Shown one piece after another: positions 542 to 17,064 of a DNA stretch of 64,000 nucleotides. The stretch is from Octopus sinensis (Eukaryota), in the NCBI RefSeq assembly GCF_006345805.1, contig NC_043002.1, positions 120,156,001-120,220,000 of the forward strand. The letters are read 5' to 3'. The position numbers and the translations under genes are program-made. The notes beneath the pieces were generated by a model that saw nothing but the letters and a program-made list of their open reading frames with translations, was not told the DNA's origin and ran no database searches. Positions within the stretch are counted from its first letter, which is position 1. Each line of letters starts with the position of its first letter.

Positions 542-543
<2 letters not shown>

Positions 544-1187
544 CAATAATAAATCTCAGAGCGAGTTATAAACAGTAGCTACAAGACATCGTGACGTACA
601 TTTGCCATTTAAATATGGCTAACCCCTAAGGGTGGATGCTACTGTAGTTTGTAGTCCCAGGAGGATACCTTCTTCAGCTGGCTTTAGACACACTTTCTGT
701 GCTCTATCAGTGTTTGCAAAGGGAAGCCATCCTTCCTGTCTTCAACATATGATACACACGGACTCGAGTTTCTGGGTATTGACCCGTCATAACCCCTTAA
801 GGGTTAGCCATATTCAAATGGCAAATATACGTCACGATGTGTTGTAGCTACTGTTTATAACTCGCTCTGAGATTTATTGTTGCTTGTTTACACTTTTTCG
901 ATAACAGTGTCTATCGATACTGGAAAACGTATAAGTATTTGTGAAGGGAACCTGCTTCTCGTCGACAACTGTGATTGCCATACGCCGATGACGGGTCAAT
1001 ACCCATAAAATCGAGTCCGTGTGTATCATATGTTGAAGACGGGAAGGATGGCTTCCCTTTGCAAACACTGATAGGGCACAGAAAGTGTGTCTATGGCCAG
1101 CTGGAGGAGGTGTCCTCCTGGGGCTACAAACTACAGTAGCATCCACGCTTAGGGGTTAGCCATATTTAAATGGCAAATGTACGTCAC
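542..1187. mobile_element. Penelope pLTR/retrozyme-like element: inverted arm plus a ~352-nt permuted unit, inside (TA)n
   Basis: 542-790 is the reverse complement of 988-1187 followed by 836-884. 801-835 recurs directly at 1153-1187. Contains an HHR motif and is flanked by TA-rich microsatellite. Confidence 0.7.
979..1023 (+). ncRNA. Minimal type I hammerhead ribozyme, decayed copy
   Basis: catacg-CCGATGA-c gggt caat accc a-TAAA-atcgag-TC-cgtgtg. The inverted copy (minus, ~755-790) keeps GAAA-ctcgag-TC but is truncated within the core. Confidence 0.7.
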
Positions 1188-12228: not shown

Positions 12229-13933
12229 TATATATATATATGTGGTATTTATTTAATTGAACGCGACGCATCCATTCCCAAGAACGTTTATATATATATA
12301 CACACATATACATACATATCTACACATGTAGACATATATGTATGTGTGTATGTATTATGTATGTATGTATGTATGCATGCATGCATGCGTGCATGAATGC
12401 ACGTTTGTTTGTATGTGAGTGAATGGTAGAGAGAGATATATATATATATAGATACATAAACATATATTCATAACACAGATACATATACTCACACGCATTA
12501 TTCTATATCTATGTATATATCTCTGTATCTCTCTCATCCTCTCTCTCTCTCTCTCTCTCTCTGTTTATCTATCTGTACATGCGTGCGTGGGAGGGAGAGA
12601 AAGAATATCTTCATTTAAAATTTGTATGAAATCGATAAGCAATGAAACACTGAAGACATGATGCGGAACCTAACCATTCTTAGTGGTCTGTCTTGTGAAT
12701 TTGATTATTTCTTCGCAATTCGAAGAAAACATTTATAAACTGCAAAATACCTTCCTATACTCTACATCGCTGGTTCAATAGTTTGATTGTATTTCTAGGT
12801 CTACCTTTATTTTTATTATTTTGCATATCTGATATGTTAAATGCCCATCGTATTTTATTTATTAATTTTATTTGATATCATCTCTGGAAATTATAGATAA
12901 TTAATAAACTGTCTCTCACGCTTTATCTTTTTATGTTTAACAGTTTCTATATACAAAGTAACTGGGGTGGAGATGTTTTATTTACAAAACTTCTTTCACA
13001 GGGAAACAAAAACATTAATAACGACCATTTGAATAAGCTGAGTAACGTCAAGAATAAGGTTCGTTAAAGTTTCCATTGTATCTATAAGATACTCTGTGAA
13101 CCTTTTAATTAAAATTGTTCAAGCTCCAATATAAAATATCGAACACTTCTTGTGAAAATAGAGTTTGATAGCAAATGGCTCGTTATACCATTCATGCCTT
13201 TTCCAAGAGAAAACGAATTGAACGAGATCCAACCAGTAACTATGCCAAAGAATGTATTCGCTGTGAGTTTAGCACTAGCTTTTCAGTTCATGCCACTTCT
13301 TAGAGGAATCTAACTGTAGCAACAAAAGAAACTGCTATTATTGATTTCAGATTTGGCACAGGGCCGAAAATTTGTTGAGAAGGAGTATAGTGTATTAAAT
13401 GAACTTCAGTACATGCTTGTACTTATTTTAATCAAATCTGGTATGAGCAAAATAGACACTGGGGTAATTGGATATAAGAAGATGTTAGTTTTGAAGTAAA
13501 AACTGAAAGGAATAAAGTCTAGCAATCTATTATATCTGCCACTCCATTGACTTAGAAACGACAATTAATAGTAATAAAAGTGTGTACTGCAAAGTGTGAA
13601 GCGATGCTCTTCGAAAGAGATGAACTCAACAGAGTATTGGAACTAAGACCGAATAGGTAATACTACTTTTCGTTTGGCCCCCGGTTCTGATTCCAGGTAA
13701 AATTCATACGTTACTTATTTTCATGTCTTCCTGAGACAGATAAAAGAAGAATACTGCTTTGAAGCGTTGTTGTTGTATACAAAATGATTAAGCTGCGGGT
13801 CAAGACAAGGTCGGAATTTACTGTGATGTTCATAAATCAAGGTAAAGTGGAATAGGTGTGAGGGTGGTTGGTAGAGAGTTCCGACTGATAGTTCTTTCTA
13901 TCTTTTCTTTGTCCTTCTCTCTATGAGTATATA

Positions 13934-13976
<43 letters not shown>

Positions 13977-14140
13977 CACAAAACAAATATAAGAGAGTGT
14001 CAATATATTGCTCACTCTAGCACCAGTTAATTCCAAAAGGTTTCAACCACGAAGATACATGTTTCCCATGAAAGCCAGTACGACTGTTAGCTCACACGGA
14101 CCAGGGCAAGTAAAAAAAAACAAAAATACAGATTATTTTT

Positions 14141-14219
14141 TTGGGACAATTGTTTCGCTATTAATGAATTAAATGTAATATTACTTACAAAAAAAATCCA
14201 TTTGTAGCTCGTCAGCCAA
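14141..14219 (-). ncRNA. Type I hammerhead ribozyme, canonical core, long loop II
   Basis: Minus strand: ttgg-CTGACGA-gcta...tagc-GAAA-caattg-TC-ccaa. Palindromic stem III and GUC cleavage triplet. Confidence 0.85.
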
Positions 14220-14733
14220 GACTATCTGGATGAAATCCACTCAATCACACGCCAGATTTTACCATAACGATAAATACGCGTGTGGTTCAATTGATTACAT
14301 CCGACGTGTAATTCAAATTGCCCCAAACCAACAGCGCGCCAAACTTTCACGGAAAACAAATACCCATTTAGAAATAAATGCAGCATAATTATAATTAATT
14401 AATAAGGGTGAGAGAATTAGATACTAATTTAATAGTATATTTATCAACACCAAGTGGCCTAGTGCTACGAGAAACCTGGATTATTATAATATTTTATAAC
14501 ATATTACAATACTTTTACAAAACAAATATAAGAGAGTGGTCAATATATTGCTCACTCTAGCAACAGTTAATCCAAAAGGTTCAACCACGAAGATACAGTT
14601 TTCCCATGAAAGCCAGTACGACTGTTAGCTTCACACGGACAGGGCAAACGTCGGATGTAATCAATTGAACCACACGCGTATTATCGTATGGTAAAATCTG
14701 GCGTGTGATTGAGTGGATTTCATCCAGATAGTC

Positions 14734-14808
14734 TTGGCTGACGAGCTACAAATGGATTTTTTTGTAGTAATATTACAGTTAATTCATAATAGCGAAACAA
14801 TTGTCCAA
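14734..14808 (+). ncRNA. Type I hammerhead ribozyme, inverted copy with weakened stem I
   Basis: ttgg-CTGACGA-gcta...tagc-GAAA-caattg-TC-caaa. One C is missing from the 3' strand of stem I. Confidence 0.75.
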
Positions 14809-15742
14809 AATAATCTGTATTTTTGTTATTTTTACTTGCCCTGTCCGTGTGAGCTAACAGTCGTACTGGCTTTCATGGGAAACATGTATCTTCGTGGTTG
14901 AAAACCTTTTGGATTAACTGGTGCTAGAGTGAGCAATATATTGACCACTCTCTTATATTGTTTTGTAAAAGTATTGTAATATGTTATAAAAATTATAATA
15001 ATCCAGGTTTCTCGTAGCACTAGGCCACTTGGGTTGAATAAATCTACTATTAAATTAGTATCTAATTCTCTCACCCTTATTAATTAATTATATATATATA
15101 TATAATATATATTGCTGTATTTCGGGATGGTCAATTTTTTTCTTATTTTCTTTGTTGCCAAATAAACACCCCCACTGTATATATGTATTTCTTTACTCGT
15201 TTATTACTGTTATTTTATTATTTTAACGTCTTTCCATTGTCTTTCCATTTCCAAAAGATATTTTGAGTGAAATAGAGTTCCTTTCTGCTTGATTTTTTTC
15301 TCTTATCTGGATAAGAGAAAAAAAATCAATCAGAAAGGAACTCTATCTCACTCAAAATATCTTTTGATAAGCATAACAAATGCGCAACCGGTAAACTCTT
15401 ACTTTTTTTATTCTACACTGAAATCTGACATTGAACTTTTCCACAAAAAACTGTATATTACACGCTTTTACTAAATATCTTATTCTGAAACAGAACACTG
15501 TAAAAGACTCTTACTTTTTTTTCTTATACACTGAAATCATTCACAAAAACTGAACATTGTATTCTAACCCAATTTTTGTCTTTTTTTGTTTAAAAAAAGA
15601 ACTTTCACCTAATTAAATACACTCTCCCTTACTTAAATATTTTGTCAGCATTTTCTTCATTTCCTTTTTTTATATATCATAACTCGTGTTCCACATCTCC
15701 TTTTTTAAATATATATATATATATATATATATATTATACATA

Positions 15743-15776
<34 letters not shown>

Positions 15777-16028
15777 TATTATATATATATATATTATATA
15801 TATATATATATATAGTATATATATATAATATATGTATGTATATACCTGTATTTACGCACATGTATATCTATCTCTATAATGATTACATAAAGCAAAACAT
15901 ACAAATTTGCACCTATACACACAGAAATACCGTTGTTGATGTTGAGGTTCCAATAAAGGTGCTTTGGATCAACGTTAGAAACCAGCTCATTCTCCATTGG
16001 AAAGAATTCTTGAAAGTAAACCAAATTA

Positions 16029-16374
16029 CTACATACATACATACATACATAATACATACATACACACATACATACATACATACATGCATACATACATACA
16101 TACATACATACATACACAAATACATACACAAATACATACATACATACATATATACACAAATACATACATAAATACACACACACATACATACATACATACA
16201 TGCATACATACATACATACATACATACATACACAAATACATACATAAATACACACACACATACATACATACATACATGCATACATACATACATACATACA
16301 TACATACACAAATACATACACAAATACATACATACATACAACATACATACATACATACACAAATACATACACAA

Positions 16375-16405
<31 letters not shown>

Positions 16406-17064
16406 CATACATACATACATACACAAATACATACATACATACATACGTACATACACAAATACATACACAAATACATACATACATACATACATACATACAC
16501 AAATACATACATACACAAATACATACACAAATACATACATACATACATACATACATACACAAATACATACACAAATACATACATACATACATACATACAC
16601 AAATACATACACAAATACATACATACATACATACATACATACACAAATACATACATACACAAATACATACACAAATACATACATACATACATACATACAC
16701 AAATACATACACAAATACATACATACATACATACATACATACATACATACATACACAAATACATACATACACACATACATACACAAATACATAGATACAT
16801 ACATACATACACAAATACATACATACACAAATACATACACAAATACATACACAAATACATGCATACATACATACGTACATACACAAATACATACATACAA
16901 ACATACATACATACATACATACATACACAAATACATACATACAAACATACATACATACATACATACACAAATACATACATACATATACAAATACATACAC
17001 AAATACATACATACATATACAAATACATACATACATACATACATACAAACATACATACATACAT
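16029..17064. repeat. ~1-kb (TACA)n tetranucleotide array with recurring CAAA variant units
   Basis: Directly visible; accounts for the long MYVC/YIHT ORFs. Confidence 0.97.

What the first reader, a model, noticed from the sequence alone, without database searches (positions are those of the whole stretch)
13978..15090. ~539-nt permuted unit with a canonical-core hammerhead and long loop II, plus an inverted arm crossing the unit junction
Seen: period 539 (13978 versus 14517). The inverted arm 14648-15090 runs through the junction. The HHR is CUGACGA...GAAA-caattg-UC with about 40 nt in loop II. This is the best candidate for an active ribozyme in the window and is a second, sequence-unrelated case of the architecture at 542-1187. 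Small indels between copies could be long-read errors.
Basis: partly seen in the sequence, partly recalled or inferred. Interest (0 to 1): 0.75.

Follow-up and report, generated by a model that had tools for sequence, protein, structure and literature searches.

The report
Two-armed hammerhead retrozyme in TA microsatellite
This is one copy of a young, protein-free repeat of about 535 bases that carries a complete hammerhead ribozyme motif and lies in a TA microsatellite as two back-to-back arms ending at two fixed points, a footprint that likely means it is copied by Penelope-type retrotransposon enzymes from both cut DNA ends; it is a known kind of element, and its self-cutting is predicted, not shown.

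Summary
Window 13978-14647 is 1.24 direct units (period 539). 14648-15092 is an inverted copy that runs through the unit junction. Both ends abut (TA)n. A strict hammerhead (HHR) descriptor hits once in the window (minus strand 14215-14145) and 0 times in 200 simulated windows.

The unit belongs to a dispersed family: an exact 27-nt piece of the HHR occurs 1,582 times in this 2.7-Gb animal genome.

I mapped 53 insertions. Of the 42 two-armed ones with both ends in view:
- 40 end at unit ~413 (T1) on one side and unit ~1-9 (T2) on the other;
- 2 deviate;
- none has the same end type on both sides.

The HHR-sense strand always has its 3' end outward. Both arms carry the same private variants.

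This matches the published Penelope-like element (PLE) insertion pattern: partial tandem, inverted copy, a "tail" at one end, and a (TA)n target. I read the locus as a non-autonomous HHR "retrozyme", likely moved by a PLE enzyme priming from both nicked strands.

Cleavage, circular RNA and the partner PLE are all unshown. Rfam gives no hit, and no independent contig bridges this locus's inversion.

This scan has already logged the same architecture for other families, in this genome and in others. It is a new member of a known kind.

The parts
13925..13977 (.). Left (TA)n microsatellite flank (target)
   Evidence: Sequence. The same kind of flank was seen at all 62 ends in view of 32 loci (locus L014 is (CATA)n-like).
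13978..14647 (+). Arm B: unit 1->539 (13978-14516) plus unit 1->132 (14517-14647). Its outer end is terminus T2 (unit position 1). The top strand here is antisense to the hammerhead.
   Evidence: T2 (unit 1-9) recurs as one end of 40 of the 42 two-armed insertions that have both ends in view.
14126..14228 (-). Hammerhead copy 1 (type I). Helix I: UUGG/CCAA plus an outer AGAU/AUCU. Core CUGACGA at 14215-14209. Helix II element 14208-14157. GAAA 14156-14153. Helix III C-AAUU-G 14152-14147. UC 14146-14145. Predicted cut between 14145 and 14144.
   Evidence: The core is intact in 81 of 85 full-length family units.
14390..14516 (+). Internal copy of the 127-nt 'tail' segment, the stretch between start sites T2 and T1
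   Evidence: Unit positions 413-539.
14647..14648 (.). Inversion junction: unit 132 (+) is joined to unit 330 (-), blunt by BLAST ends
   Evidence: Not bridged by any contig of the 4 runs laid.
14648..15092 (-). Arm A (inverted): unit 330->1 (14648-14966), then unit 539->413 (14967-15092, the 'tail'). Its outer end is terminus T1 (unit ~413). The top strand here is hammerhead-sense.
   Evidence: T1 recurs in 40 of 42 two-armed insertions. In independent runs, (TA)n runs directly into 14390 (T1) and 14519 (T2) as loose ends.
14724..14822 (+). Hammerhead copy 2: core CUGACGA 14738-14744, GAAA 14794-14797, CAAUUG 14798-14803, UC 14804-14805. Helix I is weakened by the loss of one C, and helix II carries small indels.
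   Evidence: It fails the strict descriptor. The indels could be long-read errors; this was not testable.
15093..15112 (.). Right (TA)n flank

Best explanation
The locus is one insertion of a ~535-nt non-coding repeat family (at least 1,582 hammerhead-bearing units in this genome) that is likely a non-autonomous 'retrozyme', mobilised by the reverse transcriptase-endonuclease of a Penelope-like element (PLE) through target-primed reverse transcription from both nicked strands of a (TA)n site.

Shown here:
- The family is dispersed on many contigs, always in TA-rich simple repeats.
- Each insertion is one or two arrays of head-to-tail units.
- Two-armed insertions are head-to-head: one outer end at unit ~413 (T1), the other at unit ~1-9 (T2).
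- Next to each flank, the strand that continues the flank's 3' end is always antisense to the hammerhead. The template must therefore have been the hammerhead-sense RNA.
- The inner junction varies and mostly shows 1-11 nt of overlap.
- Both arms share the insertion's private variants.

Inferred cycle:
1. An array is transcribed.
2. Neighbouring hammerheads pair through the palindromic CAAUUG to form a dimeric active fold, and cut after C17.
3. Monomers would be ligated into ~535-nt circles.
4. A PLE enzyme nicks both strands of (TA)n.
5. Reverse transcription starts internally at T1 on one strand and at T2 on the other. T2 lies 167 nt and T1 294 nt downstream of the cut site. The 127 nt between them is the PLE 'tail'.
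6. The enzyme runs round the template several times.
7. The two same-sense cDNAs are joined at their 3' ends by microhomology, and each is copied across the other.
For: Family size and spread:
- 217 matches at 91-100% identity, from 910 first-look candidates of which 40 were scored.
- The exact 27-mer of the HHR 3' half occurs 813 + 769 times; the control occurs 0 times.

Anatomy:
- In 32 best-scoring loci, 29 are two-armed and 3 single-armed.
- In an unselected sample (the first 20 loci on contig C1; L117 holds two duplicate insertions), there are 21 insertions: 14 two-armed and 7 single-armed.
- Of the 42 two-armed insertions with both ends in view, 40 are T1+T2, 2 deviate (L110 ends at unit 377; L115's arm B runs on to unit 502), and none is T1+T1 or T2+T2. 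L029 has only one end in view.

Polarity: 18 of 18 strand switches within 2 kb, among the first 100 listed 27-mer hits, are '- then +'.

One template per insertion:
- Mean distance is 0.0095 within an arm (83 pairs), 0.0092 between opposite arms (53 pairs), and 0.0241 between insertions (5,858 pairs).
- Opposite arms versus different insertions gives p = 3e-16; same arm versus opposite arms gives p = 0.57.
- 32 private variants are shared by all units of both arms in 10 insertions.
- There are 0 fixed arm differences in the 3 insertions with at least 2 full units per arm.

Junctions: 18 overlaps, 2 blunt and 9 with filler, of 29.

HHR:
- The strict descriptor gives 1 hit versus 0 in 200 simulations.
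- The core is intact in 81 of 85 units.
- The dimer cofold forms the intermolecular A-CAAUUG-U helix: -45.8 kcal/mol versus 2 x -20.1.
- The 535-nt RNA folds at -154.8 kcal/mol, z = -6.9.

Non-coding: the longest stop-free stretch is 87 aa; GC is 33%.

The genome holds candidate partners:
- GIY-YIG hits: 5,029 candidates, 147 matches among the 150 scored.
- A 781-aa RVT_1 + C-terminal GIY-YIG ORF family is itself inserted in (TA)n, with an optional ~40-nt tail.

Literature:
- PLE insertions are partial tandems with an adjacent inverted 5'-truncated copy and a tail at one end, and (TA)n targets are reported (PMC8557442, passages).
- A purified PLE nicks and extends both strands, and initiates internally at two sites that define the tail (PMC11167929, main text).
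- Animal retrozymes have been proposed to ride on PLEs (PMC7229834, passages; bioRxiv 10.64898/2026.07.22.740005, abstract and section 14).
Against: - No partner was identified. blastn of the unit against 38 PLE-bearing loci found only a nested copy of the repeat itself, and a scan for T1/T2-like ends found nothing convincing.
- The 781-aa PLE shows no canonical HHR by my regex.
- Rfam's hammerhead models do not score the motif.
- The family is too young (about 2% divergence) for covariation within it.
- The 'tail' is 127 nt, against the published 30-40 nt.
- The unit (535 nt) is larger than the ~200-400 nt retrozymes described in animals.
- In vitro, the published PLE showed no difference in start site between strands, so the strict T1/T2 pairing is not predicted by that work.
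- None of the 96 arm ends tabulated at an inversion junction or at the inner end of a single arm (43 two-armed and 10 single-armed insertions) lies at the predicted cut site, unit 167/168. The genome therefore carries no footprint of cleavage.
Confidence: 0.78

Rival explanations
1. The unit is not an independent element. It would be the pseudo-LTR / 5' region of an autonomous PLE, and these loci would be heavily 5'-truncated or internally deleted PLE copies.
For: PLE pLTRs carry type I HHRs and occur as tandem or inverted pieces (PMC8557442 and PMC4209133, passages). Xenopus retrozymes resemble PLE pLTRs (bioRxiv 10.64898/2026.07.22.740005, section 14).
Against: In all 53 mapped insertions the units abut head to tail (539->1) for up to 5 full units per arm, with no coding sequence between them. 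The longest stop-free stretch is 87 aa. There is no blastn similarity to the two PLE families examined.
Confidence: 0.1
2. A DNA-level element: a foldback-type or rolling-circle (Helitron-like) transposon, or a satellite that spreads by recombination, with the hammerhead being incidental.
For: Arms built of tandem repeats in inverted orientation recall foldback elements, and insertion in A/T-rich targets recalls Helitrons (both recalled, not tested against a library).
Against: - The two tips are different sequences (T1 versus T2), not terminal inverted repeats.
- No transposase or Rep ORF is present.
- The inner junction differs in every insertion and shows microhomology or filler.
- The polarity rule ties the ends to the hammerhead-sense strand.
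- The copies are dispersed on many contigs.
Confidence: 0.05
3. The inverted arm at this locus is a long-read assembly artefact (a palindromic chimera), and only the direct repeat is real.
For: No contig of 4 independent runs bridges 14647|14648, and depth is 0 at 14637-14643 at 97% likeness. The window's copies carry homopolymer indels relative to the family.
Against: - The same layout, with different junctions and unique flanks, is seen at 43 two-armed insertions.
- The arm ends at the family's fixed T1 terminus and runs into (TA)n and then unique sequence.
- That unique sequence is covered in two runs: summed word depth 48 in X15 and 6.4 in X17 on the left flank, with one 112-nt contig in each run on the right flank at 15117-15220.
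Confidence: 0.04

Closest known systems
Animal non-LTR retrozymes (Cervera & de la Pena 2020, PMC7229834; Li, Clavereau & Pollet 2026, bioRxiv 10.64898/2026.07.22.740005)
   Same: Non-coding, low-GC tandem repeats carrying a type I hammerhead with a short palindromic helix III. They are dispersed in many copies and have been proposed to ride on PLEs.
   Different: - The unit is 535 nt, against roughly 200-400 nt.
- Helix II is a 52-nt element.
- The passages and sections I read of those two papers contain no mention of inverted arms, fixed termini, a tail or (TA)n targeting (term searches).
- Circular RNA and cleavage are shown for their families but not for this one.
Penelope-like element insertion architecture (Craig et al. 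2021, PMC8557442) and the in vitro PAc system (Frangieh et al. 2024, PMC11167929)
   Same: Partial tandem plus an adjacent inverted 5'-truncated copy. An extension ('tail') at one end only. AT-rich or (TA)n targets. Both strands nicked and extended. Internal initiation at two sites downstream of the hammerhead.
   Different: - There is no RT/EN ORF here.
- The tail is 127 nt, not 30-40 nt.
- The start sites lie 167 and 294 nt from the cut site, against roughly 90 nt in PAc.
- Every two-armed insertion pairs one T1 end with one T2 end, a regularity not described in the text I read.
Dimeric type I hammerheads of newt satellite 2, Schistosoma and PLEs (as summarised in Cervera & de la Pena 2014, PMC4209133)
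   Same: A 1-bp helix III capped by a 4-nt palindromic loop, so that two neighbouring copies can form an extended helix III. Helix II is larger than usual.
   Different: Helix II is far longer here (a 4-bp stem plus about 44 nt of imperfect stem-loop). No recognisable loop 1 - loop 2 contacts were assessed.
Twin priming of human L1 (recalled from Ostertag & Kazazian 2001; not read here)
   Same: Two cDNAs primed from the two strands of one target and joined by microhomology give an inversion.
   Different: In L1 the second primer anneals at variable internal sites of a linear mRNA. Here both start sites are fixed, and each arm can hold several units.
Plant LTR retrozymes (PMC4918200; search listing and abstract only)
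   Same: Non-autonomous, hammerhead-bearing, circular-RNA retroelements.
   Different: Type III hammerheads, LTRs with PBS/PPT, 4-bp TSDs, Gypsy-type mobilisation. None of these is seen here.

Membership tests
Hammerhead ribozyme, type I | Conserved core: C3 U4 G5 A6 N7 G8 A9, G12 A13 A14, the A15.1-U16.1 pair, H17, and the G10.1-C11.1 pair | tested here: met
   The sequence reads CUGACGA ... (G)CUA/UAG(C) ... GAAA-C AAUU G-UC. It is intact in 81 of 85 units.
Hammerhead ribozyme, type I | Three helices around the core, with helix I open (type I) | tested here: met
   Helix I is UUGG/CCAA plus an outer AGAU/AUCU. Helix II is GCUA/UAGC plus an extended stem. Helix III is C-G with an AAUU loop. 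The dimer forms an 8-bp intermolecular helix III.
Hammerhead ribozyme, type I | Scores with the curated covariance models (Rfam hammerhead families) | tested here: not met
   There is no hammerhead hit at gathering score in the window, nor at E<=10 in 13800-15300. The likely cause is the 52-nt helix II and the 1-bp helix III; that is my inference.
Hammerhead ribozyme, type I | Compensatory changes that keep the helices | tested here: inconclusive
   The family is only about 2% diverged. Two unrelated families in the same genome meet the same design with different helix sequences: GAAG/CUUC with CAUAUG, and GAGGU/ACCUU with CUCGAG. These are not aligned homologues.
Hammerhead ribozyme, type I | Site-specific self-cleavage | not testable with these tools
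There is no genomic footprint at unit 167/168.
Animal non-LTR retrozyme | Short non-coding tandem repeats with a type I HHR, low GC, many dispersed copies | tested here: met
   (GC 33%, longest stop-free stretch 87 aa). The unit size of 535 nt exceeds the described range.
Animal non-LTR retrozyme | Expressed as linear and circular monomer RNA | not testable with these tools
   No listed run is on record as RNA, and contigs cannot show RNA ends.
PLE-type (Penelope-like) insertion | Partial tandem plus an adjacent inverted 5'-truncated copy | tested here: met
   43 of 53 mapped insertions are two-armed.
PLE-type (Penelope-like) insertion | An extension ('tail') between two initiation sites, present at one end only | tested here: met
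   40 of 42 insertions pair a T1 end with a T2 end. The length is 127 nt, against the published 30-40 nt.
PLE-type (Penelope-like) insertion | AT-rich / (TA)n target | tested here: met
   All 62 ends in view of 32 loci abut TA-rich simple repeats, one locus being (CATA)n-like. In the unselected sample, 38 of 42 ends do.
PLE-type (Penelope-like) insertion | Encodes RT plus a GIY-YIG endonuclease | tested here: not met
   The unit has no ORF. It is therefore filed as non-autonomous, not as a PLE. Autonomous PLEs do exist in the genome.

The most novel reading that the evidence does not exclude
A dimeric Penelope-like RT-endonuclease loads onto one monomeric circular retrozyme RNA, which has exactly one T1 and one T2 site. 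It nicks both strands of a (TA)n target. Its two protomers then start cDNA at the two different sites at once and chase each other round the circle. That would explain three things: every two-armed insertion pairs one T1 end with one T2 end (40 clean, 2 deviant and 0 homotypic, of 42), both arms carry the same private variants, and each arm holds a variable number of units. These repeats would then be a natural, genome-wide read-out of a step of Penelope retrotransposition that has so far been seen only in vitro.
Probability: 0.3. Interest if true: 0.6.

Novelty: new member of a known kind. Interest (0 to 1): 0.35.

Why it matters
Hammerhead repeats in animal genomes have been proposed, mostly from co-occurrence and sequence kinship, to be parasites of Penelope-like retrotransposons. 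Here the insertions themselves carry the Penelope footprint: a tandem, an inverted copy, a one-sided tail and a (TA)n target. They also carry a strict polarity that names the hammerhead-sense RNA as the template.

With about 1,600 young units, two fixed start sites and variable junctions, the family is a convenient natural data set. It could be used to test how these enzymes start on both DNA strands, and whether the template is a circle.

This adds detail to a known picture rather than changing it, and this scan has already logged the same architecture for other families.

Tried and rejected
- Rfam: 0 matches at gathering score over the whole window. At E<=10 over 13800-15300 there were 7 matches, six of them miRNA models (five on the (TA)n, one inside the repeat) and one bacterial sRNA model, none a ribozyme.

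- The DNA search with a generic HHR pattern: 3 hits against 4.9 expected. It could not reach the real motif because the gap limit of 38 is shorter than helix II.

- Expression: no RNA holder is listed among the 22 runs. The runs guessed as 'RNA?' hold pieces of the repeat but not the unique flank. That does not tell RNA from low-coverage DNA.

- Locus support: no contig of X15, X16, X17 or X18 bridges 14647|14648. Contigs reaching 14648 from the right continue with ordinary unit sequence, so they come from other copies. In one search, four one-contig joints in X15 look like inversion junctions of other insertions, but their sides are only 23-26 nt, too short to count.

- Partner search: blastn of the unit against 8 full PLE loci and 30 GIY-YIG loci found only a nested copy of the repeat in L093. 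A local-alignment scan of 304 '(TA)n-preceding' ends for T1/T2-like sequence found only that copy. A by-eye likeness between the sequence before T1 and the end of the 781-aa PLE's tail (each a hairpin followed by CUAAU... and an AU-rich end) is too weak to use.

- Snap-back (hairpin) synthesis from a single cDNA: rejected, because the second arm ends at its own fixed site (T2) and not back at T1.

- A linear, hammerhead-cleaved RNA as template: not supported. Arms run through the cut site repeatedly, and none of the 96 arm ends tabulated at an inversion junction or at the inner end of a single arm lies at unit 167/168.

- The search of earlier findings by place (near) and by sequence returned nothing for this family.

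- Two read-laying runs failed because the machine was busy. The same request was answered.
Full report
**What is in the window.** Positions 13978-14516 are a 539-nt unit. It is repeated directly at 14517-14647 (unit 1-132). (TA)n lies on both sides. On the minus strand there is a complete type I hammerhead: CUGACGA (14215-14209), a 52-nt helix II element closed by GCUA/UAGC, GAAA, C-AAUU-G and UC, with the predicted cut between 14145 and 14144.

A descriptor that demands the core, 4 bp of helix II, a palindromic helix III, UH and 4 bp of helix I hits once in the window. It hits 0 times in 200 first-order Markov simulations. The inverted arm has a second core on the plus strand (14738-14805), but it lacks one C of helix I. 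Rfam's models do not score either copy, at gathering score or at E<=10.

**It is a dispersed, young family.** The unit matches the window's own genome (2.7 Gb, 13,516 contigs) at 217 places with 91-100% identity. Those came from 910 first-look candidates, of which 40 were scored. An exact 27-mer from the hammerhead's 3' half occurs 813 + 769 times, against 0 for the reversed control. The family unit is 535 nt, 33% GC, and has no stop-free stretch longer than 87 aa. The hammerhead core is intact in 81 of 85 full units.

Twenty public runs from three organism labels hold half or more of the sampled words of a tandem dimer. None is on record as RNA.

**Every insertion has the same anatomy.** I mapped 32 distinct loci taken from the best BLAST matches. 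As an unselected sample I also mapped the first 20 loci on contig C1 that hold the 27-mer (21 insertions, two of them a duplicated pair in L117). Together they give 43 two-armed and 10 single-armed insertions.

In a two-armed insertion the two arrays lie head to head. One outer end is at unit ~413 (T1) and the other at unit 1-9 (T2). Of the 42 two-armed insertions with both ends in view:
- 40 are T1+T2;
- 2 deviate (L110 ends at unit 377; L115's second arm runs on to unit 502 and has no TA flank);
- none is T1+T1 or T2+T2.

L029 shows only one end. The 10 single-armed insertions carry T1 (6) or T2 (4). Arms hold from a fraction of a unit up to 5 full units.

All 62 ends in view in the first sample abut TA-rich simple repeats (one locus is (CATA)n-like), as do 38 of 42 ends in the second. 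In independent runs, contigs run from (TA)n straight into window 14390 (T1) and 14519 (T2).

**Polarity names the template.** At each outer end, the strand that continues the flank's 3' end is antisense to the hammerhead. In the window this is the top strand at 13978 and the bottom strand at 15092. Among the first 100 listed 27-mer hits, all 18 strand switches within 2 kb are '- then +'. If a flank's 3'-OH primed synthesis, the template was the hammerhead-sense RNA. On that RNA, T2 lies 167 nt and T1 294 nt downstream of the predicted cut.

**One template per insertion.** In an alignment of 110 full units:
- mean distance is 0.0095 within an arm (83 pairs), 0.0092 between opposite arms of one insertion (53 pairs), and 0.0241 between insertions (5,858 pairs);
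- opposite arms versus different insertions gives p = 3e-16, and same arm versus opposite arms gives p = 0.57;
- ten insertions with at least 3 full units carry 32 private variants shared by every unit of both arms;
- the three insertions with at least 2 full units per arm have 0 fixed arm differences.

Inner junctions differ from insertion to insertion. Of 29, 18 have 1-26 nt of overlap (median over all 29: 2), 2 are blunt and 9 have filler. A snap-back of a single cDNA cannot explain this, because the second arm ends at its own fixed site. Two cDNAs primed from the two target strands and joined at their 3' ends can.

**Comparison with what is known.**
- Craig et al. 2021 (PMC8557442; passages) describe PLE insertions as partial tandems, often with an inverted 5'-truncated copy beside them and a 30-40-bp tail at one end. 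They report microsatellite bias, including (TA)n.
- Frangieh et al. 2024 (PMC11167929; main text) show that a purified PLE nicks AT-rich DNA and extends both strands. It starts reverse transcription internally at two nearby sites downstream of the hammerhead, and the stretch between them is the tail.
- Cervera and de la Pena (PMC7229834 and PMC4209133; passages) define animal retrozymes and the dimeric, palindromic-helix-III hammerhead, and propose PLEs as their movers.
- Li et al. 2026 (bioRxiv; abstract, section 14 and term search) argue the same from phylogeny.

In the text I searched, neither retrozyme paper mentions inverted arms, tails or (TA)n targets. The present family therefore combines the two descriptions: a retrozyme-type repeat with the full PLE footprint. 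The differences are a 127-nt tail, a 535-nt unit, a very long helix II, and the strict T1/T2 pairing.

**The genome has the machinery, but I found no partner.** GIY-YIG domains give 5,029 first-look candidates, with 147 matches among the 150 scored. [quoted passage not shown] It is itself inserted in (TA)n, and in one copy (L098) it has a ~40-nt tail. Neither it nor a 775-aa family shows blastn similarity to the unit, and a scan for T1/T2-like ends found nothing usable.

Other hammerhead repeats in (TA)n exist in the same genome:
- the family at window 542-1187, which has a canonical HHR in a copy in L095 but a degenerate one in the window;
- a small element in L095 whose hammerhead also has a ~52-nt helix II and a CAUAUG helix III.

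**Folding.** Two hammerhead copies cofold with an intermolecular A-CAAUUG-U helix: -45.8 kcal/mol, against 2 x -20.1 for the monomers. The 535-nt RNA folds at -154.8 kcal/mol, z = -6.9 against 100 shuffles. These are predictions only.

**What stays open.**
- Cleavage, circular RNA and the identity of the mobilising PLE are all inferred.
- The genome shows no footprint of the cut site.
- This locus's own inversion junction is not bridged by contigs of the four runs laid. The recurrence of the architecture at 43 two-armed insertions argues against an assembly artefact, but it does not prove this one junction.
- The small indels in the window's copies could be long-read errors.

**Earlier notes of this scan.** After I had reached this reading, a word search showed that other agents had logged the same two-armed, two-terminus, (TA)n-targeted hammerhead repeats for other families, in this genome and in others. 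One of those notes includes the one-circle idea. Those notes are not independent evidence. They do mean the architecture is not new to the scan.

**Verdict.** The element is a new member of a known kind: an animal hammerhead retrozyme with a Penelope-type insertion. It is of moderate interest, mainly as a clean natural data set on how Penelope-type enzymes initiate.

Noticed in passing
window 542-1187: A second, unrelated repeat family (unit ~390 nt; 191 matches from 4,480 first-look candidates in the genome) with the same tandem-plus-inverted layout between (TA)n runs. A copy in L095 has a canonical hammerhead (CUGAUGA GAGGU-AAAC-ACCUU GAAA CUCGAG UC). The window's copy has it mutated (CCGAUGA ... 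AUAAAAUCGAG).
   Followed up: partly
L095 (G000:C8:18814000-18823900), reverse-complement coordinates 674-900 and 1390-1616: A third hammerhead element: two 227-nt inverted arms, each ending in (TA)n 57 nt after the predicted cut. Its HHR has a ~52-nt helix II and a CAUAUG helix III. It lies beside a family-2 copy and a 5'-truncated 775-aa PLE, so (TA)n tracts collect nested insertions.
   Followed up: partly
L098, L093, L099, L096, L100 (for example G000:C3:65731500-65741400): A young PLE family: a 781-aa ORF (RVT_1 + C-terminal GIY-YIG) preceded by an overlapping 479-aa ORF. It is inserted in (TA)n, and its 3' end reads ...CATTTTTTACAA. L098 carries an extra ~40-nt tail. My regex found no canonical hammerhead in it.
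   Followed up: partly
L093 6764-7859: A two-armed copy of the 535-nt repeat lies about 1.7 kb downstream of a 781-aa PLE copy. It is absent at that position in the other PLE copies, so this is probably coincidence.
   Followed up: yes
L117 2352-3812 and 6430-7904: Two insertions with the same arm lengths and junction (unit 433 / 424) lie 4 kb apart. This looks like a segmental duplication that copied an insertion.
   Followed up: no
L100 984 and 6919: A compact hammerhead-like motif (CUGACGA AGGGAGGGUU...AACCCU GAAA UCGG UC) in a 1.55-kb stretch that is duplicated on both sides of a PLE copy.
   Followed up: no
window 15252-15366: A 48-nt inverted repeat, 96% complementary, with a 19-nt spacer. 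Public runs cover 15328-15391 at very high summed depth, so it belongs to another abundant repeat.
   Followed up: no
window 15982-16499: A long array of (CATA)n-like 8- and 12-nt repeats. The 'ORFs' listed at 15686-17064 are translations of this simple sequence.
   Followed up: no
window as a whole: The window is G000:C6:120156001-120220000 on a contig of 120,472,873 bases, so it lies within about 320 kb of a contig end.
   Followed up: no
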